DNA of 32,000 nt from Gemmata obscuriglobus (GTDB taxonomy: Bacteria; Planctomycetota; Planctomycetia; Gemmatales; Gemmataceae). The DNA is taken from contig NZ_CP042911.1 of assembly GCF_008065095.1 (NCBI RefSeq), positions 810,001 to 842,000 on the forward strand, read 5' to 3'. The position numbers and the translations under genes were made by a program. Shown in pieces: positions 26,532-32,000 of the stretch (its first letter is position 1; each line of letters opens with the position of its first letter). The notes under the pieces were generated by a model that had not been told where the DNA came from, did no database searches, and saw only the letters and a program-made list of their open reading frames with translations.

Positions 26532-26924
26532 GTTGAGGACGGGGCGTCGTGCCTTCGCTCGAACTCGGACCGTGGAACCCGGAACGCTTCCTGTGTCCGC
26601 TACCGTGTCTTGCCCGCGACCGCGGGCGCGCTCGGAAAAATTTTCCGGCGCCGAAGGATCTGGTGCATCATAGCCGGCGGGGCCGGGGCTTTTCGATTAC
26701 GGCGTCCGATCCGGTCGCGCCTCGTAAAGGCCCTTTACGCGAGCCGGTGAGCGGCGGTTAAGAACCGGGAGAACCCGGCACCGGTCGCGGTTATACTGAT
26801 CCCAGCCGTTTCCCGTTCCGTGCTCCAAGTTCCGAGCCGGGAACCGGCCCGGATTGGGCCGCCGGGCGCGACAGGTCCGGCGCCGGAGCCGACATCAACC
26901 CGTGGTACCTGCGGACGGGGCGTC

Positions 26925-28385
26925 ATGAATTCCGTGAAAAGTAGCGCGCTGGTGCTCGCCCTGGCGGCCCCCTTCGCGCTCTACGCGGCCTGGCAGATCC
27001 ACAGCGCAACGCGGCTCGACGCGTTGGGACCGGTTCCCCCTCCGGCGCCCGACCCGCCCCGGGACCAGCCGACGACCGCCGCGAGGGCCGCGACCGCCGC
27101 GGCCGAGACCCGCAAGGCGATCGGGGTGACGTGGCGGTACCGCGCGCCCGACGCGGCCGACCGGTCCACAGACCCGGACGCGGACGCGGTCGTGAAGGCC
27201 GCAGGGGCGCGGGCCGCGGACCTCACGGACCTCGACACGTTTCTGTCCGGAATCGAGAAGCCGGCGTTCGTCGGCAAGTTGAAGGACAAGTACACAACCT
27301 GGGCGGGCGACCAGACCGCCGCTCGGCGGGCGGAAGGCGCCGTGCGGGCGTGGCTCCTGAAGCCGCCGCCGGTCGAGTCCGCTGCGGACGCGGACCGGGC
27401 CGTAGCGGACGCCACGCAACTGATCGACGAGTACGCGCAGCGGTCACGGTTCGCGAACAAGGCGCGGGCAACGGTGTGGCGACTCGAGGCGCGGCTGAAG
27501 GTCGTGGACCGGCTCGCCGCGCTGGCGGACCGCGAGTACGCCAGCGCAACCAAGGCGAAGCTGCCGTTGGACCGCGACACCAATGTGGGTAAAACCGCAC
27601 TGGACGCGCTCCGCGGGCTCAACAGGCACTTCGCCGAACTCGGTGACGAGTTGCGCCGGTCGGACGCGGAGAAGGTCGCGCTGGCTCCGGAGCTGCGAAC
27701 GAGCATTGAGGGGCGGGGCGCCGGAGCCGACGAGTACACGGCCCGCGAGGAGCTGCTCGCGCTGTTCGCGCAGGAGGACCTGTTCGACAACCCGACCAAC
27801 GCCGAGCCGTGGCTGAAGAAGGTTCACGAGCGGTACGCGCGGACGAGGAGCGCCGCCGCCCGCAAGCTGATCCGCGACAAGGTCCAGGAGTTCGCCGACG
27901 CGTTCATCCCGCCGGTCGCCCGGCTCGATGACAAGGTGCTCGTGAAAGGGGCCGAGACGCCCCGCAAAGAGGTCGTCATTAAGTACGAGGCGGGCAACGG
28001 GGAGTACAAGCAGGCCCCGCTGTCGGACGAGGTCGCCGGCCTGACCGAGTTCAACTTCGCGAAGCGCCACCCGGGCGACAACACGCTTGTCGTGGCGCAG
28101 GGGGCCGAGGAGGTGCCCGGAGCGCTCAAACCCACGGCGGTGAGCCGGGCGGCCGTGGGGTACAACGCCGCGCGCGAGCAGGTGTCCCAACGGGCGGCCC
28201 CGCGTTGGACGGCAGAATCGGTCGCGGCTCTAAAAAAGGCGTGCGAACCGCAAATGGAGTTGGTAGACCAGTTGAGAACGCCCGAGCAAAAGGGGGCCGG
28301 CAAGGCCCCCCGGATCGCGACCCGGGTGCTCGGGCTGTCGGCGGGCGTGGCCGCGCATAAAGAGCTGTTCGAGTCGGCCCCGTAG
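26925..28385 (+). CDS. hypothetical membrane-anchored helical protein (486 aa), first gene of the vWA cluster
   Basis: ATG 26925 gives MNSVKSSALVLALAAPFALYAAW (TM/signal anchor), then a Pro-rich linker and a long Ala/Arg/Glu/Asp-rich helical region. No motif recognised. The track ORF begins at GTG 26820, but its first 35 codons are P/G/R-rich and precede the anchor. Confidence 0.65.
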   Translation: MNSVKSSALVLALAAPFALYAAWQIHSATRLDALGPVPPPAPDPPRDQPTTAARAATAAAETRKAIGVTWRYRAPDAADRSTDPDADAVVKAAGARAADLTDLDTFLSGIEKPAFVGKLKDKYTTWAGDQTAARRAEGAVRAWLLKPPPVESAADADRAVADATQLIDEYAQRSRFANKARATVWRLEARLKVVDRLAALADREYASATKAKLPLDRDTNVGKTALDALRGLNRHFAELGDELRRSDAEKVALAPELRTSIEGRGAGADEYTAREELLALFAQEDLFDNPTNAEPWLKKVHERYARTRSAAARKLIRDKVQEFADAFIPPVARLDDKVLVKGAETPRKEVVIKYEAGNGEYKQAPLSDEVAGLTEFNFAKRHPGDNTLVVAQGAEEVPGALKPTAVSRAAVGYNAAREQVSQRAAPRWTAESVAALKKACEPQMELVDQLRTPEQKGAGKAPRIATRVLGLSAGVAAHKELFESAP

Positions 28386-28419
28386 CGGCGGCGGACCCAT
28401 TTCCCCGACTGGGACGGAC

Positions 28420-30501
28420 ATGAGCCTGCTGGCGACCTGGAAGAAAGTGCTGCTGTTCGGCGCGTTCGGGGCGGTCGGCGCCCTGGCCGGCTGGCTCGTC
28501 GGCGAGCCGCTCCTGGCCGCGGGCGGCTACGCGGCGAAATCGGCCGGCGCCGGACCCGGGGCCACGCTCGTCACCAAACCCACCGCCCCGTCCGGCAACC
28601 CGCCGCTACCCGACGACTTCCGGCGCCGCGTCGAGCAGGCGAAGGGGAGCACCGGGGACGTTCAGATCACCCTCATCTGGGACGACGCGAACGACCTCGA
28701 TTTGCACTGCGTCGACCCGAGCGGGTACGAAATTTGGTACAAGCAGAAGGCGTCCCCGACCCGCGGCCGCCTGGATGTGGACCGCAACGCCGGGTGTCAG
28801 TCCATCGACCCTCAGCCGGTGGAGAACATCTTCTGGCCGGAGGGCGGCGCCCCGCAAGGGGATTACACCATCTACGTCAACTTCTTCCAGCGCTGCACGG
28901 GCGGCCCGGACCGGAGCGACTACCGGGTCAACATCCTGGCCAACGGCGAGCGGAAAGAGATCAAGAACAGCCTCACGAAGCTCCCGGGCGGCGGGCCGGG
29001 GCCAAAACAGGTGGTCCACCGGTTCAAAGTTGAGCCGCGCCTGGAGCTGTACACCCCGAACGACTTCGACCTTCAGCCGGGGCAAACGGTCAAGGTGCCC
29101 GTGACGGTCCGACGCGCCTACCACAACGGTCCGGTTGAGGTGCGACTGGAGAACCTACCGGACGGGGTCACCGCCGGCCGGCTCACGATCCCGGAAGGGA
29201 AGGACGACGGCGAACTCGAACTCGTTGCGAGCGACGCCTCGAAAGAGGGGGCGCGAGCGATCCAGTTCGTAGCCACGGGCGGCGCCCTGGTCAGCACCAA
29301 GAGCGTGAAGCTCACCGTCCCGAAGGCGTCCGGGGAGCTGTCGGCGTGGGGGATCGCGTCGACCGGCCTCTGGACCGCGCTCGTGGCGACGGGTCTGTGC
29401 CTCGCCCTGCTCGCCGGGCAGAACCGGCACCTCGGGAAGAAGCCGTTCGCGCCGGGGCGCGTGCCGCTCGCCCTGGTGGTCGCCGGCGCCGGCGCGGCCG
29501 GGCTCGTGTCCGGGGGCGTCGGGCAGGTGCTCTACACCCTCTTGCTCGGCCTCGGGGGCGCGAAGCTCGGGTTCGTCGTCGGGTGGGTGCTGCTCGGCGG
29601 CCTGCTCGGGCGCGGGGTGAGCCTTTTCATTCCCAACCTCGACGGCAATAAGGCGACCGGCGCGGGCCTCAGCGGCGGGCTGCTCGGCGCGGTCGCGTTC
29701 CTGGTCGCGTCCGGAGCGGGCGACTGGGCCGGGCGGTTGGGCGGGGCGGCGCTGCTCGGGTTCTGCATCGGGCTGATGGTCGCGGTCGTCGAGGCCGCGT
29801 TCCGCAGCGCGTGGCTGGAGGTGCGGTTCGGCGAGCGCGAGGCGATCACCGTCAACCTCGGCGCGGAGCCGGTGAAGGTCGGCGGCGACGCGCGGGCGTG
29901 TACCGTCTGGGCGCGGGGGGCGGCCGATGTCGCCTTCCGGTACTGGATTCGTGACGGGAAGGTGTTCTGCGAGGACGTGCCCGCGCGCCGCGAGGCCCCC
30001 GTGAGTGCGGGGGACACCCGCCTCGCGGGCGCCGTAACCGTCGTCGTGCGCACCAGCGCCGCGGCGGTGACCGCGCCCGTCGCCGCGCCGATCGCGCCGG
30101 CCCCGCCGCCGGTTCCGGTCCCCCCTCCGATTGCCGCGCCACCTACGCCCGCGCCTCCCGCGCCCCCTGCAGCCGGCGACTACGACGACGGCCTGCCGAT
30201 GCCGCTGGTGCCCCCGGCGCCGGCGCGCCGCCCGGTCGCTTCGATCCTCGACCTGGACGACCCGCGACCGGCACCGCCGAAGCCCGTGGCGCCGCCACCC
30301 CCGGCGGCGAAACCGCCGGGACCGGTCGCGGGTCCGAAACCGCCGGTGCCGGCCCCGCCGCGCCCGCCCGTTCCGACCGTCGCCAAGCCGCCGGCGATCG
30401 CCGCCAAGGACGGCGGCGCGGACGCGTGCCCGACCTGCCGGCGCAAGATCCCCGGCGCCCCGGGCGCGCGGTACTGCATGGTGTGCGACAAGACCTTTTG
30501 A
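28420..30501 (+). CDS. polytopic membrane protein: TM - DUF2135-like beta-sandwich - second beta module - 5 Gly-rich TM - beta-rich cytoplasmic segment - Pro-rich linker - C-terminal zinc ribbon
   Basis: 693 aa. TM1 VLLFGAFGAVGALAGWLVG. DUF2135-like stretch: VQITLIWDDANDLDLHCVDPSGYEIWYK...RLDVDRNAG...PVENIFWPEGGAPQGDYTIYVNFF. Gly/Ala-rich helices span aa ~310-470. PAPP/PPKP low complexity spans aa ~555-660. The C-terminus is CPTC-x12-CMVC. It starts 34 nt after the previous gene. Confidence 0.8.
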   Translation: MSLLATWKKVLLFGAFGAVGALAGWLVGEPLLAAGGYAAKSAGAGPGATLVTKPTAPSGNPPLPDDFRRRVEQAKGSTGDVQITLIWDDANDLDLHCVDPSGYEIWYKQKASPTRGRLDVDRNAGCQSIDPQPVENIFWPEGGAPQGDYTIYVNFFQRCTGGPDRSDYRVNILANGERKEIKNSLTKLPGGGPGPKQVVHRFKVEPRLELYTPNDFDLQPGQTVKVPVTVRRAYHNGPVEVRLENLPDGVTAGRLTIPEGKDDGELELVASDASKEGARAIQFVATGGALVSTKSVKLTVPKASGELSAWGIASTGLWTALVATGLCLALLAGQNRHLGKKPFAPGRVPLALVVAGAGAAGLVSGGVGQVLYTLLLGLGGAKLGFVVGWVLLGGLLGRGVSLFIPNLDGNKATGAGLSGGLLGAVAFLVASGAGDWAGRLGGAALLGFCIGLMVAVVEAAFRSAWLEVRFGEREAITVNLGAEPVKVGGDARACTVWARGAADVAFRYWIRDGKVFCEDVPARREAPVSAGDTRLAGAVTVVVRTSAAAVTAPVAAPIAPAPPPVPVPPPIAAPPTPAPPAPPAAGDYDDGLPMPLVPPAPARRPVASILDLDDPRPAPPKPVAPPPPAAKPPGPVAGPKPPVPAPPRPPVPTVAKPPAIAAKDGGADACPTCRRKIPGAPGARYCMVCDKTF

Positions 30502-30553
30502 AACGCTGCCCCGAAGCCGACCCGACCTCTGCCACAGATAAGGAGCCCCGCCA

Positions 30554-31450
30554 GTGCCCTACGACATGCAGATCGACCGCTCCAACCCCGGGTGCATCGT
30601 GTTCCTGGTGGACCTGTCCAACTCGATGCTCGACGGCATCGCGGGGACGCAGCGGGCCAAGATGGACACGGTCTCGACCGCGATCAACCGGTTCTTCCAG
30701 GAGCTGATCACGAGCTGCGAGAAGGGCGAGGAGAAGCCCCGCAACTACTTCGACGTGGGGCTCATCGGGTACACCACCGACGCCAACGGGGTCGCGATCG
30801 TCCGCCCGCTGTTCCAGCTCGGGCTGGCCGGCCGGGACCTCGTGAGCATCAGCGAGCTGTACGACCACCCGCTGGAGATCGAGCAGCGCCGCAAGAAGGA
30901 GTTCGTGGACGACGGCGCCGGCGGGCTGACCGAGGTGGAGCGGCAGATCGCGTTCCCGGTGTGGTTCCGCTCGCCGGCCCCGACGGAGATGTTCGGCACC
31001 CCGATGTGCACGGCGCTGGGGTACGGCAAGCAGGTGCTCCAGGCGTGGATCGACGCGCACCCGAACAGCTTCCCGCCGATGGTCATCAACCTGACCGACG
31101 GCGAGTCGACCGACGGGATCCCGGTCCCGTTCGCCGAGGACCTCAAGGCGCTGGCCACCGCCGACGGGAGCGTGCTGCTGTTCAACTGCCACCTGTCGGG
31201 CCGCGACGCGCAGCCGGTGTTCCTCCCCTCCACCGAGTCGGCCCTGCCGGACGAGTACGCCCGCGACCTGTTCGGCATGTCCAGCCCGCTGCCGGACAAG
31301 CTGCGGCACATGGCGGAGGTGAAGGGGATCTCGGCCCCGCTCGGGTGCAAGGCGATGGCGTTCAACGCCGACGCGGTGAGCCTGCTGAAGCTGCTTAACG
31401 TGGGCACGCAGGTGGTCGCGGCGGCCACCCTGCCCCCGCACCTGCGGTGA
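30554..31450 (+). CDS. TerY/YegL-like von Willebrand factor A (vWA) domain protein with intact MIDAS
   Basis: 298 aa with a GTG start preceded by AGGAG (30541-30545). CIVFLVDLSNSM (DxSxS), DVGLIGYTTD, GTPMCTALG and VINLTDGESTDG. No signal peptide. Confidence 0.85.
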   Translation: MPYDMQIDRSNPGCIVFLVDLSNSMLDGIAGTQRAKMDTVSTAINRFFQELITSCEKGEEKPRNYFDVGLIGYTTDANGVAIVRPLFQLGLAGRDLVSISELYDHPLEIEQRRKKEFVDDGAGGLTEVERQIAFPVWFRSPAPTEMFGTPMCTALGYGKQVLQAWIDAHPNSFPPMVINLTDGESTDGIPVPFAEDLKALATADGSVLLFNCHLSGRDAQPVFLPSTESALPDEYARDLFGMSSPLPDKLRHMAEVKGISAPLGCKAMAFNADAVSLLKLLNVGTQVVAAATLPPHLR

Positions 31451-31457
31451 GCGCACG

Positions 31458-31547
31458 TTTCAAGTTCCAGGTTCCGAGTTCCACGCCCGACGGTCGGGAG
31501 CCTGGTTTCGTGCCCCTAACTTGGAACCCGCCACTTGGAACATGAAA
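31458..31547 (+). promoter_or_regulatory. structured intercistronic element with GTTCC(A)/TGGAAC repeats overlapping the next start codon
   Basis: GTTCCA at 31464-69, GTTCC at 31471-75 and GTTCCA at 31478-83 face TGGAAC at 31522-27 and 31536-41. tttcaagttcc (31458-68) can pair with ggaacatgaaa (31537-47) at 10 of 11 positions. There is a central cccgac-g-gtcggg palindrome. Confidence 0.4.
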
Positions 31548-32000
31548 CTACAGCGGAGCCGCCGCCCGGGTGCCTCGTGCTGCTCCTGCGGCTCTCGGGC
31601 GGGATGACCCGCGACGTGGTCACCCCCCGGGGCGAGGCGCCGGCGGTCGAGGCGGCGCGGCTCCTCGCGGACGACCTCATCGAAGGGCTGGTGAACACGG
31701 CCGCGGCCGGGTACGCGGTCGGCGCGCTCGACGTCGCCGTGCTCGGCTACCGCGCGCCCGACCAGGAGGGCCAGCAGCTCCTCTCGCTGCTCCCCGACGG
31801 CGACCCCAAGCCGCGGTTCGTGCCGCTCGCGCACGTCGCCGGGGCGCCGGCGGTCCCGCGCGACGGGGACGGGCTCCCGCGGAAGTGGGCCGTGCTCCCC
31901 GCCTGCGCCGGCGAGCCGTCCGCCGGCGCGGCCCTCGCGGGCGTTTACCAGATGGTGTCCGTGTGGCTCACCGGGCGCTACGCGAGCCGCCCGCCGGTCG
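31535..32000 (+). CDS. second vWA-like paralog with degenerate MIDAS; 3' end beyond the window
   Basis: The frame is open from the stop at 31517-19 to the window edge, so it is not in the track (no stop). The translation ..PPPGCLVLLLRLSGGMTRD..DVAVLGY..AGEPSAGAALAGVYQMVSVWL parallels the previous gene (SNPGCIVFLVDLSNSM..DVGLIGY..GTPMCTALGYGKQVLQAWI). TTG 31535 is the only canonical start upstream of the homologous region. Confidence 0.7.
   Translation, partial: MEHETTAEPPPGCLVLLLRLSGGMTRDVVTPRGEAPAVEAARLLADDLIEGLVNTAAAGYAVGALDVAVLGYRAPDQEGQQLLSLLPDGDPKPRFVPLAHVAGAPAVPRDGDGLPRKWAVLPACAGEPSAGAALAGVYQMVSVWLTGRYASRPPV

What the first reader, a model, noticed from the sequence alone, without database searches (positions are those of the whole stretch)
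26925..32000. Candidate uncharacterised membrane-anchored twin-vWA system (cluster continues past the window edge)
Seen: four same-strand genes sit 34, 52 and 84 nt apart (26925-28385, 28420-30501, 30554-31450, 31535->32000), which is operon-like. (A) has an N-terminal TM anchor plus ~450 aa of helical sequence with no motif I recognise. (B) is a polytopic protein with an outward-facing beta-sandwich module and a cytoplasmic Pro-rich/Zn-ribbon tail. (C, D) are two vWA paralogs without signal peptides. Established: cytoplasmic TerY/YegL-type vWA proteins are known from Ter clusters and from the TerY-P triad (vWA + PP2C phosphatase + Ser/Thr kinase; Anantharaman, Iyer and Aravind 2012). vWA modules also recur in NTPase-linked conflict systems. 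Inference: this looks like a related but differently wired module, in which a membrane sensor/scaffold accompanies the vWA pair. No kinase, PP2C, MoxR or other NTPase is visible in the window, so either they lie beyond nt 32000 or this is a distinct type. Its function (signalling, envelope stress, phage/conflict response) is unknown.
Basis: partly seen in the sequence, partly recalled or inferred. Interest (0 to 1): 0.75.

Follow-up and report, generated by a model that had tools for sequence, protein, structure and literature searches.

The report
Split TerY-P / GTPase membrane signalling cluster
These Gemmata genes are the membrane-sensor, vWA and phosphatase half of a larger kinase/phosphatase/GTPase system that was predicted by comparative genomics in 2020 and never tested; in this species the system is split over two chromosomal sites, so it is a variant of a known kind rather than a new one.

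Summary
The four genes are real, sit on the same strand and are spaced exactly as described. The window is Gemmata obscuriglobus (A, B and C are GobsT_07250, 07260 and 07270).

- **C** is a full-length TerY-type vWA protein (PADLOC TerY, E = 2e-77) with an intact MIDAS motif.
- **D** starts with a TerY-like vWA paralog whose MIDAS is degenerate (hhalign 97.8%). Just past nt 32000 it continues into a PP2C phosphatase with conserved catalytic motifs.
- **B** has one TM helix, a YfaP/DUF2135-like and an Ig-like periplasmic β-sandwich, five TM helices, a cytoplasmic FHA-fold domain that lacks the canonical phosphothreonine-binding residues, a Pro-rich linker and a zinc ribbon.
- **E**, a secreted tandem-repeat protein, follows D.

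In about 15 other Gemmataceae genomes the same genes sit directly downstream of a DO-GTPase2, a protein kinase and a GAP1-N2 protein. The kinase matches the TerY-P kinase model (PADLOC STK_OB, E = 3e-54). G. obscuriglobus keeps those three genes at a second locus (kinase = GobsT_02160).

The cluster is therefore a planctomycete variant of the GAP1-N2 GTPase-centric system with a kinase/PP2C/vWA theme (Kaur et al. 2020), which contains a TerY-P triad. It is not a kinase- and NTPase-less type. No member has been characterised experimentally. Novelty: new variant of a known kind. Interest: moderate.

The parts
26925..28385 (+). A (GobsT_07250, 486 aa): an N-terminal hydrophobic anchor or signal followed by an unassigned domain that is probably periplasmic.
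   Evidence: ORF. No Pfam, NCBIfam, PADLOC or PDB sequence match. The family is tiny: 60 clusters at 50% identity among 1.84 billion proteins, all about 470-500 aa. It sits directly upstream of B in about 22 loci. In L029 an A-like domain is fused after the TM helix of GAP1 (HMM E = 1e-28). That links A to GAP1 and puts the domain on the far side of the membrane from GAP1.
28420..30501 (+). B (GobsT_07260, 693 aa): the polytopic membrane protein that forms the constant core of the cluster together with C and D.
   Evidence: More than 344 homologs. AF2 model. B-C-D is conserved in 21 of 22 informative loci.
28615..29034 (+). B residues 66-205: an outward-facing beta-sandwich resembling YfaP/DUF2135, with invariant acidic motifs (LDLHC.DP, GG.LDVD.N, P.ENI.W, G.Y).
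   Evidence: Alignment A1. The Pfam DUF2135 hit is below threshold (E = 0.13). Sources name the protein 'DUF2135 domain-containing' or 'YfaP family'. pLDDT is above 90. The same module occurs in Verrucomicrobia, Armatimonadota and cyanobacteria.
29035..29325 (+). B residues 206-302: an Ig-like beta-sandwich. Homologs carry one to four copies.
   Evidence: AF2 model and Foldseek hits to tandem Ig domains. Repeat number varies in A1 and among loci.
29332..29799 (+). B residues 305-460: five Gly-rich transmembrane helices.
   Evidence: AF2 helices 309-337, 350-376, 381-403, 409-431 and 436-460. Many invariant Gly residues. The HMM for this segment recurs with the FHA-like domain in five phyla.
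29800..30060 (+). B residues 461-547: a cytoplasmic FHA-fold domain that lacks the canonical phosphothreonine-binding residues.
   Evidence: Sub-model pLDDT 88. The top 50 Foldseek PDB hits are all FHA or FHA-like domains (OdhI, GarA, Rv1747, FhaA, YscD), with TM-scores of 0.57-0.72 and probability 1.00. Alignment to a canonical FHA domain shows GR changed to GG and the SxxH and TNG loops deleted (this alignment has low probability).
30061..30498 (+). B residues 548-693: a disordered Pro-rich linker carrying a conserved acidic motif ([DE][YFW]DDGLPMP...RP....SILD.DD), then a C-terminal zinc ribbon (CPTC...C..C).
   Evidence: pLDDT below 50 for 548-665. The motif and the Cys residues (C670, C673, C689 are nearly invariant) are visible in A1. 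Some homologs replace the linker with GYF_2 domains.
30554..31450 (+). C (GobsT_07270, 298 aa): a cytoplasmic TerY-type vWA protein with an intact MIDAS motif.
   Evidence: PADLOC PDLC02224 'TerY', E = 1.9e-77, covering profile positions 1-272 of 277. Invariant D20, S22, S24, T74/T75 and D182. It is the most conserved component, with a median of 88% identity to orthologs.
31535..32000 (+). D, the 5' part only. The full protein is 599 aa as annotated (C1280_29615), or 613 aa from the TTG at 31535. It consists of a TerY-like vWA paralog with a degenerate MIDAS motif, fused to a PP2C phosphatase that lies beyond the window.
   Evidence: Full gene read in L001. D-N against C by hhalign: 97.8%, E = 9e-13. 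Pfam PP2C_2 E = 4.9e-6 and PADLOC PDLC02222 'PP2C' E = 7e-24 at residues 247-477. PP2C motifs WEDA, ADGASxGI, LATDAVA and MVNDDCTL are conserved in the 10 orthologs aligned.
26532..26924 (.). The intergenic region between the divergently transcribed ECF-sigma fusion gene and A. This is the junction where relatives carry GTPase-kinase-GAP1 instead. It presumably holds the promoter.
   Evidence: tblastn with GTPase, kinase and GAP1 queries finds nothing anywhere in the window. No + strand sigma-70-like site was found, so no promoter is shown.

Best explanation
This locus is the distal half of a conserved Gemmataceae system of 8-10 genes. The ancestral gene order is DO-GTPase2, TerY-P-type Ser/Thr kinase, GAP1-N2, A, B, TerY vWA (C), vWA*-PP2C (D), E, and often one or two B paralogs that carry an outward-facing vWA domain. 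In other words, it is a TerY-P phosphorylation triad wired into a GAP1-N2 GTPase-centric system. In G. obscuriglobus the system is split. GTPase-kinase-GAP1 lie at GobsT_02160 and its neighbours, and A-B-C-D-E lie here.

Shown:
- The identity of each part.
- The conserved gene order.
- The split into two loci.
- The membrane layout of B.

Inferred working model:
1. A, E and B's YfaP-like and Ig-like modules face the periplasm. They are the fastest-evolving parts (40-54% identity) and probably act as the sensing surface.
2. The membrane-anchored GTPase-GAP1 pair acts as the switch.
3. The kinase, encoded in trans here, and the PP2C of D set the phosphorylation state of a cytoplasmic assembly.
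4. That assembly is built on B's tail: the FHA-like domain, the acidic Pro-rich motif and the zinc ribbon.
5. C would dock on it through its MIDAS site. D's degenerate vWA would tether the phosphatase by pairing with C or B.
6. The output is unknown. It is either a conflict response (phage or invader), as for TerY-P, or envelope-linked signalling.
For: - **Parts.** C matches PADLOC TerY at 1.9e-77. D matches PP2C, and its motifs are conserved across the aligned orthologs. D-N is a TerY-like vWA. The G. obscuriglobus protein P0266 (GobsT_02160) matches PADLOC STK_OB, the TerY-P kinase model, at 2.6e-54 over residues 3-316. Its K62, HGDLQHDN and DYDG motifs are invariant, and sub-threshold Pkinase, RIO1 and TCAD9 hits occur in 8 of 9 orthologs.
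- **Upstream genes in relatives.** Pfam identifies DO-GTPase2 and GAP1-N2/GAP1-M.
- **Gene order.** GTPase-kinase-GAP1-A-B-C-D-E is seen, whole or up to a contig end, in L010-12, 15-18, 20-22, 24, 25, 28, 29 and 36.
- **Second locus.** G. obscuriglobus encodes DO-GTPase2, kinase and GAP1-N2 together elsewhere.
- **B.** AF2 models and an FHA-fold match.
- **Link between A and GAP1.** A GAP1-TM-A fusion exists in L029.
- **Independent recurrence.** Proteins with the 5TM plus FHA-like module sit next to PP2C, kinase and vWA genes in cyanobacteria and Pirellulaceae.
- **Conservation gradient.** Median identity is C 88, PP2C 74, kinase 64, B 54, A 43 and E 40.
- **Literature.** Kaur et al. 2020 (PMC7159879) describe GAP1-N2 systems, including planctomycete ones, with a theme of kinase (with zinc ribbon, beta-rich domain or TM helices) plus PP2C plus stand-alone vWA. 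TerY-P is an experimentally shown anti-phage system (PMC7699616; bioRxiv 10.1101/2022.08.12.503731).
Against: - No experiment exists on any member, so the working model is inference from architecture.
- B's FHA-like domain lacks the Arg, Ser, His and Asn residues that bind phosphothreonine. A simple kinase-to-FHA read-out is therefore not supported.
- That the kinase at the second locus acts on this locus is inferred only from synteny in relatives. G. obscuriglobus has many other kinases.
- The very high conservation of C, the family-wide vertical-looking distribution and the absence of variable effectors or mobile-element context are unusual for a defence system.
- Kaur et al. said the kinase/PP2C/vWA theme was restricted to actinobacteria. 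No FNIII-repeat component was identified here.
- L025 carries GTPase-kinase-GAP1-A-B without C-D-E, so the two halves are separable.
Confidence: 0.65

Rival explanations
1. A lineage-specific housekeeping signalling system, not a defence system. The same parts would form a trans-envelope Ser/Thr phospho-switch that controls some Gemmataceae-specific aspect of envelope or membrane organisation, or the assembly of a cytoskeleton-like vWA complex.
For: - C is 80-97% identical across genera, and its 90%-identity cluster has 125 members from many species.
- Gene order is conserved across the family.
- When the cluster fragments, the pieces are kept rather than lost.
- GC content equals that of the surroundings.
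- No variable effector genes or defence-island neighbours were seen.
Against: - The closest experimentally tested relatives, the TerY-P triads, are anti-phage.
- The periplasmic parts A and E evolve fast, as sensors of external, changing ligands do.
- Paralogous second copies exist in the same genome (L017 and L031), as is typical of conflict systems.
- G. algarum lost E, and G. palustris and Gemmata sp. IIL30 lost A and E.
Confidence: 0.3
2. One reading: a self-contained twin-vWA membrane module without a kinase or NTPase, and therefore a distinct new system type.
For: - Within 27 kb upstream and 4.4 kb downstream in G. obscuriglobus there is no kinase or GTPase belonging to the system.
- B-C-D alone persists in G. 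palustris and Gemmata sp. IIL30.
- In G. palustris the kinase is solitary elsewhere.
Against: - The PP2C is part of D.
- The TerY-P-type kinase, GTPase and GAP1 are contiguous with A-B-C-D-E in about 15 genomes.
- G. obscuriglobus, G. algarum and G. palustris all retain the kinase, at 70-74% identity to the query ortholog.
- An active PP2C implies a partner kinase.
Confidence: 0.04
3. A canonical Ter (tellurite or metal stress) cluster, or a BatA-D or vWA-MoxR system.
For: Only the TerY-type vWA domain and the presence of vWA proteins next to membrane proteins.
Against: No TerB, TerC, TerD or TerZ, no MoxR or other AAA+ protein, and no DUF58 were found among the cluster proteins or any other window gene.
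Confidence: 0.01

Closest known systems
GAP1-N2-type GTPase-centric conflict systems, 'third theme' of kinase + PP2C + stand-alone vWA (Kaur, Burroughs, Iyer and Aravind, eLife 2020; PMC7159879). These are computational predictions only.
   Same: - DO-GTPase2 with N-terminal TM helices and zinc ribbons.
- A GAP1 protein with N2 and M domains and a C-terminal TM helix.
- An active kinase, an active PP2C and a TerY-like vWA.
- Membrane-proximal organisation with outward-facing beta-sandwich and vWA domains.
- Planctomycetes are listed among the host phyla, and a GYF/TM-rich partner is mentioned. Some B homologs carry GYF_2.
   Different: - That theme was reported as restricted to actinobacteria.
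- Here the zinc ribbon, beta-rich domain and TM helices sit on a separate kinase-less protein (B) rather than on the kinase.
- The PP2C is fused to a second, degenerate vWA.
- A, E and B' are additional conserved genes.
- No FNIII-repeat protein was identified.
- In G. obscuriglobus the GTPase-kinase-GAP1 half is at another locus.
TerY-P triad (Anantharaman, Iyer and Aravind 2012). The stand-alone TerY-P anti-phage system was shown by Gao et al. 2020, as relayed by PMC11090510 and PMC7699616. A P. aeruginosa variant is active against Autographiviridae (bioRxiv 10.1101/2022.08.12.503731).
   Same: All three PADLOC TerY-P profiles are matched: TerY by C at 1.9e-77, PP2C by D at 7e-24, and STK_OB by the kinase at 2.6e-54.
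   Different: - The kinase matches only the kinase half of the profile (positions 2-298 of 562), so it has no OB fold. Instead it carries about 660 aa of helical repeats and a beta-rich C-terminus.
- It is not a three-gene cassette.
- In this genome the kinase is unlinked.
- B, A, E and the GTPase-GAP1 pair are added.
FHA domains used as phospho-independent scaffolds (for example the T3SS YscD/PscD cytoplasmic domain), and classical pThr-binding FHA domains (GarA/OdhI, FhaA).
   Same: B residues 461-547 adopt the FHA beta-sandwich fold (TM-scores 0.57-0.72 to these structures). The domain sits on the cytoplasmic face next to TM helices, as in YscD.
   Different: Pfam FHA gives no hit. The GR, SxxH and TNG elements are missing, so phosphothreonine binding is doubtful.
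YfaP/DUF2135 beta-sandwich domains.
   Same: Motif pattern, database naming and a weak Pfam hit.
   Different: Below the Pfam threshold. Here the domain is the ectodomain of a 6-TM protein linked to phospho-signalling genes.

Membership tests
TerY-P phosphorylation triad | TerY-type cytoplasmic vWA protein with a MIDAS motif | tested here: met
   C matches PADLOC PDLC02224 at E = 1.9e-77 over the full length. DxSxS, T and D are invariant in 14 orthologs.
TerY-P phosphorylation triad | PP2C-family phosphatase encoded next to TerY | tested here: met
   D residues 247-477 match PADLOC PDLC02222 at 7.4e-24 and Pfam PP2C_2 at 4.9e-6, above the gathering score. The metal-binding motifs are conserved. 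Here the PP2C is fused to a second vWA.
TerY-P phosphorylation triad | Ser/Thr kinase of the TerY-P type encoded in the same cassette | tested here: not met
   There is no kinase in the window or within 4.4 kb downstream. The cognate kinase (PADLOC STK_OB, 2.6e-54) is at a second locus in this genome and in the same cluster in about 15 relatives.
TerY-P phosphorylation triad | Kinase fused C-terminally to an OB fold (stand-alone defence form) or to a zinc ribbon (CoCoNuT-linked form) | tested here: not met
   The match covers only profile positions 2-298 of 562. No Cys-pair motif was noted in the kinase sequence read, although no motif scan was run. A zinc ribbon is present at the C-terminus of B instead.
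TerY-P phosphorylation triad | Protects against phage | not testable with these tools
   Needs experiments.
GAP1-N2-type DO-GTPase system (Kaur et al. 2020) | DO-GTPase (Pfam DO-GTPase2) | tested here: met
   Not present in the window. Present in the genome at L085 (PF19993). Present upstream in relatives (6.9e-9).
GAP1-N2-type DO-GTPase system (Kaur et al. 2020) | GAP1 protein with GAP1-N2 and GAP1-M domains, encoded downstream of the GTPase | tested here: met
   L086 carries PF20013 and PF20014. L025 scores 6.7e-4 and 4.2e-5. Directly upstream of A in relatives and fused to an A-like domain in L029.
GAP1-N2-type DO-GTPase system (Kaur et al. 2020) | FNIII-repeat component | tested here: inconclusive
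   No fn3 Pfam hit in any protein scanned. B and B' carry 1-4 Ig-like beta-sandwich repeats that might be the counterpart.
GAP1-N2-type DO-GTPase system (Kaur et al. 2020) | Physical linkage of all components in one neighbourhood | tested here: not met
   The system is split into two loci in G. obscuriglobus and G. algarum. Linkage is met in most other Gemmataceae.
vWA-MoxR (VMAP ternary) and BatA-D systems | MoxR-type AAA+ ATPase partner | tested here: not met
   No AAA or MoxR hit in any cluster protein here or in relatives.
Ter (tellurite resistance) operon | TerD/TerZ, TerB or TerC genes nearby | tested here: not met
   None among the window genes or cluster proteins.
FHA domain (B residues 461-547) | FHA beta-sandwich fold | tested here: met
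   Foldseek: the top 50 PDB hits are all FHA or FHA-like domains, probability 1.00, TM-scores 0.57-0.72, on a model with pLDDT 88.
FHA domain (B residues 461-547) | Conserved pThr-binding residues (Arg of GR, Ser/His of SxxH, Asn of TNG) | tested here: not met
   hhalign to a canonical FHA domain shows GR changed to GG and both loops deleted (that alignment has low probability). No Pfam FHA hit.
YfaP/DUF2135 (B residues 66-205) | Match to Pfam PF09906 | tested here: inconclusive
   E = 0.13 and 12.8 bits against a cut-off of 22, covering 15 of 48 positions. UniRef names the protein DUF2135 or YfaP.

The most novel reading that the evidence does not exclude
B, TerY and vWA*-PP2C form a previously unrecognised trans-envelope device. 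A YfaP-like periplasmic sensor is coupled through five TM helices to a cryptic, phospho-independent FHA-like domain and an acidic Pro-rich tail, and this tail nucleates a MIDAS-dependent vWA assembly. The assembly's state is set by a kinase encoded in trans and a tethered PP2C. The system serves a core Gemmataceae function in cell envelope or membrane organisation rather than phage defence. It would be a bacterial analogue of integrin-style outside-in signalling.
Probability: 0.2. Interest if true: 0.75.

Novelty: new variant of a known kind. Interest (0 to 1): 0.45.

Why it matters
TerY-P is a validated anti-phage system whose mechanism is unknown. The DO-GTPase/GAP1 systems exist only as computational predictions. 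This Gemmataceae variant matters for five reasons.

1. It shows the two are one system in a phylum where the kinase/PP2C/vWA theme had not been reported.
2. It moves the zinc ribbon, beta-rich domain and TM helices from the kinase onto a separate protein. The beta-rich domain can now be identified as an FHA fold.
3. It supplies candidate interaction elements: B's acidic tail motif, C's intact MIDAS site and D's degenerate vWA.
4. The split into two loci in cultured, genetically tractable Gemmata gives a natural experiment for testing which parts depend on which.
5. The unusually high conservation of TerY here raises the question of whether such 'defence' triads can be core signalling machinery.

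Tried and rejected
- **Standard family libraries.** Pfam and NCBIfam on A-D gave almost nothing: only weak VWA and DUF2135 hits. PADLOC profiles were what identified C, D and later the kinase.
- **PDB sequence searches.** Searches with C and with family profiles of B, the kinase, E and A found nothing.
- **Whole-protein fold search of B.** It returned only generic tandem Ig domains. A separate model of residues 455-550 was needed to see the FHA fold.
- **A as a truncated GAP1 paralog.** My first clustering merged A with GAP1. HMM searches showed they are unrelated, apart from one fusion protein, L029_0.
- **Kinases sharing B's 5TM/FHA-like module.** Single-linkage clustering suggested this. 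Domain HMMs did not find the module in the kinases, so the idea was dropped.
- **B's FHA domain reading the kinase's phosphothreonines.** The binding residues are absent, so this was weakened.
- **E as a kinase or NTPase.** It is a secreted protein with roughly 86-90 aa tandem repeats and no family match.
- **Promoter and terminator scans.** Uninformative.
- **Anantharaman 2012 paper.** It is not held in the library, so its content is cited only as relayed by PMC11090510 and PMC4978471.
- **Structures of A and E.** Not predicted.


Full report
**1. Observation**

The window is from Gemmata obscuriglobus. Protein C is encoded on the draft contig ABGO01000249 and on complete genomes. A, B and C are GobsT_07250, 07260 and 07270.

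- The four + strand ORFs are at the stated coordinates, with 34, 52 and 84 nt spacers.
- Third-codon-position GC of 0.88-0.99 identifies them as the coding frames.
- No + strand terminator-like site interrupts them.

**2. The four proteins and what follows them**

- **C** (298 aa) matches the PADLOC 'TerY' profile end to end (E = 1.9e-77). Pfam VWA hits are only sub-threshold. Its MIDAS residues (DxSxS, T, D) are invariant in 14 orthologs.
- **D** was read in full on L001 (599 aa from the annotated start, 613 aa from the TTG at 31535).
  - Residues 247-477 are a PP2C phosphatase (Pfam PP2C_2 E = 4.9e-6, PADLOC 'PP2C' E = 7e-24). All metal-binding motifs are conserved in the 10 orthologs aligned.
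  - The N-terminal ~245 residues are a TerY-like vWA paralog (profile-profile 97.8%, E = 9e-13 against C). Its MIDAS motif has decayed, with DLSNS changed to RLSGG.
  - The 'twin vWA' reading is therefore right. The missing PP2C sits just past nt 32000.
- **B** (693 aa) was modelled with AlphaFold2 (pLDDT 76.5).
  - The layout is TM1, two beta-sandwiches, five Gly-rich TM helices, a beta-rich cytoplasmic domain, a disordered Pro-rich linker and a CxxC...CxxC ribbon.
  - The first beta-sandwich resembles YfaP/DUF2135 and has invariant acidic motifs. The second is Ig-like, and homologs carry one to four copies.
  - A separate model of residues 455-550 (pLDDT 88) gives only FHA and FHA-like domains among its top 50 PDB matches (TM-scores 0.57-0.72).
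  - Aligned to a canonical FHA domain, the Arg of GR and the SxxH and TNG loops are missing. It is an FHA fold that probably does not bind phosphothreonine in the usual way.
- **A** (486 aa) has no detectable relatives outside a tiny family (60 clusters among 1.84 billion representatives).
- **E** (743 aa, downstream of D) has a signal peptide and about seven tandem repeats of 86-90 aa, with no family match.

**3. Neighbourhoods**

A scan of one genome per species with a B profile gave 77 loci. I analysed them with tblastn, my own ORF calling and clustering.

- B-C-D is conserved in 21 of 22 informative Gemmataceae loci. A precedes B and E follows D in most of them.
- Wherever enough upstream DNA is present (about 15 loci), A is preceded on the same strand by three more genes:
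  - a DO-GTPase2 (Pfam PF19993);
  - a ~965-aa protein with an N-terminal kinase domain;
  - a ~945-aa GAP1 with GAP1-N2 and GAP1-M domains and a C-terminal TM helix.
- One or two B paralogs, with an outward-facing vWA in place of the YfaP-like module, often follow E.
- One genome (L029) fuses GAP1, a TM helix and an A-like domain. This ties A to GAP1 and places A's domain in the periplasm.

**4. The missing half in G. obscuriglobus**

- Nothing in the 32 kb window resembles the GTPase, the kinase or GAP1. The other window genes are unrelated.
- A search with the kinase profile, followed by a cluster look-up, found GobsT_02160 (976 aa) in G. obscuriglobus.
- Its locus reads DO-GTPase2, kinase, GAP1-N2, then a 313-aa membrane protein.
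- Residues 3-316 of that kinase match the PADLOC TerY-P kinase profile 'STK_OB' (E = 2.6e-54), but only its kinase half.
- All three TerY-P profiles are therefore matched. The system is split over two loci about 500 locus tags apart. The physical distance is an inference.
- G. algarum shares the split, with different locus-tag ranges for the kinase and for B/D.
- Other cultured relatives show different break points:
  - Frigoriglobus tundricola: GAP1-A-B-C-D-E-B';
  - G. palustris: B-C-D alone, with a solitary kinase elsewhere.

**5. Comparison with what is known**

- Kaur et al. [quoted passage not shown]
  - One theme combines an active kinase with a PP2C and a stand-alone vWA. [quoted passage not shown] The authors reported this theme as restricted to actinobacteria.
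  - For planctomycetes they mention FGS effectors and a GYF/TM-rich partner. Some B homologs carry GYF_2.
- The kinase/PP2C/vWA trio is the TerY-P triad (PMC11090510). As a stand-alone cassette it is anti-phage (PMC7699616). In P. aeruginosa it acts against Autographiviridae and most cells survive (bioRxiv 10.1101/2022.08.12.503731).
- No later paper on DO-GTPase systems is in the library.
- The Gemmata cluster is thus a member of a predicted, untested class. Its lineage-specific differences are:
  - the zinc ribbon, beta-rich (FHA-fold) domain and TM helices sit on a separate protein;
  - the PP2C is fused to a dead vWA;
  - A, E and B' are additional constant parts.
- MoxR, Bat and Ter-operon assignments fail.

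**6. How it probably works**

The parts, the gene order, the split and B's topology are shown. The mechanism is inferred.

- Periplasmic modules (A, E and B's ectodomains) evolve fastest. Median identity to orthologs is 40-54%, against 88% for C and 74% for the PP2C. This fits a sensing surface coupled to a constrained cytoplasmic core.
- I propose that the membrane-bound GTPase-GAP1 pair gates the kinase.
- The kinase and the D-tethered PP2C would set the phosphorylation state of an assembly on B's tail.
- C's MIDAS site would bind an acidic motif there ([DE][YFW]DDGLPMP...SILD.DD, which is conserved among the closer orthologs).
- The 5TM plus FHA-like module recurs next to PP2C, kinase and vWA genes in cyanobacteria and Pirellulaceae. 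That supports a functional link between this membrane module and Ser/Thr signalling.
- The biological output is open.
  - Homology to TerY-P and the framing of Kaur et al. favour a conflict role.
  - The extreme conservation of C, the family-wide synteny, the retention of pieces after fragmentation and the lack of variable effectors favour a housekeeping envelope-signalling role. I give that rival 0.3.

**7. Verdict**

Novelty is 'new variant of a known kind'. Interest is moderate (0.45). The value lies in the FHA-fold assignment, the planctomycete TerY-P/GTPase linkage and the natural split, not in a new system type.

Noticed in passing
L086:6102-7043 (G. obscuriglobus second locus, ABGO01000279): Directly after GAP1-N2, where relatives carry A, G. 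obscuriglobus encodes a 313-aa protein with two TM helices and a weak Exo_endo_phos (EEP nuclease/phosphatase) hit. It could be an effector of the relocated GTPase-kinase-GAP1 half.
   Followed up: partly
L029:3-3608: A 1201-aa protein made of GAP1, a TM helix, a Lys/Asp-rich low-complexity stretch and an A-like domain. It is a Rosetta-stone fusion linking GAP1 and A.
   Followed up: yes
L031:1262-4663 and L031:9004-18884: The same MAG as L017 carries a paralogous second system: a long B with four Ig repeats, TerY, vWA*-PP2C, then a contiguous STK_OB-type kinase (E = 1e-63) with a TM helix and a large C-terminal region. A kinase-FGE-sulfatase fusion lies upstream, which recalls the 'FGS' effectors of Kaur et al.
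   Followed up: partly
L039:7621-16750 and L045:6313-16111 (Okeania, Trichodesmium): A cyanobacterial cluster with this order: vWA, a vWA-5TM-FHA-like protein, a short B-like protein, PP2C, a Ser/Thr kinase, and a protein with the YfaP-like module. It looks like an independent assembly of the same parts.
   Followed up: partly
L001:417-1878 versus window:26925-28385: In the 2008 draft assembly, gene A is split into two ORFs (335 and 147 aa). It is intact (486 aa) in the window, in complete genomes and in many read-set assemblies. A frameshift error in the draft is the likely cause.
   Followed up: partly
L021:4727-5509: An IS200-like transposase (Y1_Tnp) is inserted between the kinase and GAP1 genes of one Gemmata MAG. 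Such insertions may be how the cluster gets broken up.
   Followed up: no
window:24189-26531 (- strand): A 780-aa ECF-type sigma factor (regions 2 and 4) fused to a TM segment and a large C-terminal region with PSCyt2/DUF1549 repeats. It is divergently oriented from A and is not conserved next to the cluster in other genomes.
   Followed up: partly
window:9217-15195 (- strand): A 1992-aa protein whose only detectable domains are TPR repeats, in its middle third.
   Followed up: no
window:2517-4052 (- strand): An IS66-family transposase sits in a region of lower GC (0.61-0.65) than the rest of the window.
   Followed up: no
window:19162-24057: A hybrid histidine kinase with four PAS domains and a receiver domain (1191 aa) is followed by a calcineurin-like metallophosphoesterase (293 aa). 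These are further signalling genes upstream, unrelated to the cluster in other genomes.
   Followed up: no
L001:11118-11867: A canonical FHA-domain protein (Pfam FHA 8e-16) with a long Pro/Ala-rich tail lies 2 kb downstream of E, beyond an oppositely oriented 504-aa gene (no Pfam match) that from its sequence looks like a solute-binding protein. G. algarum has the same arrangement (L007, a 250-aa ORF). I used it only as a reference FHA sequence.
   Followed up: partly
L007 (G. algarum JC673), L008 (Gemmata sp. IIL30), L089 (G. palustris): The genus Gemmata shows stepwise erosion of the cluster. E is lost in G. algarum. A and E are lost in IIL30 and G. palustris. B-C-D always remains.
   Followed up: yes
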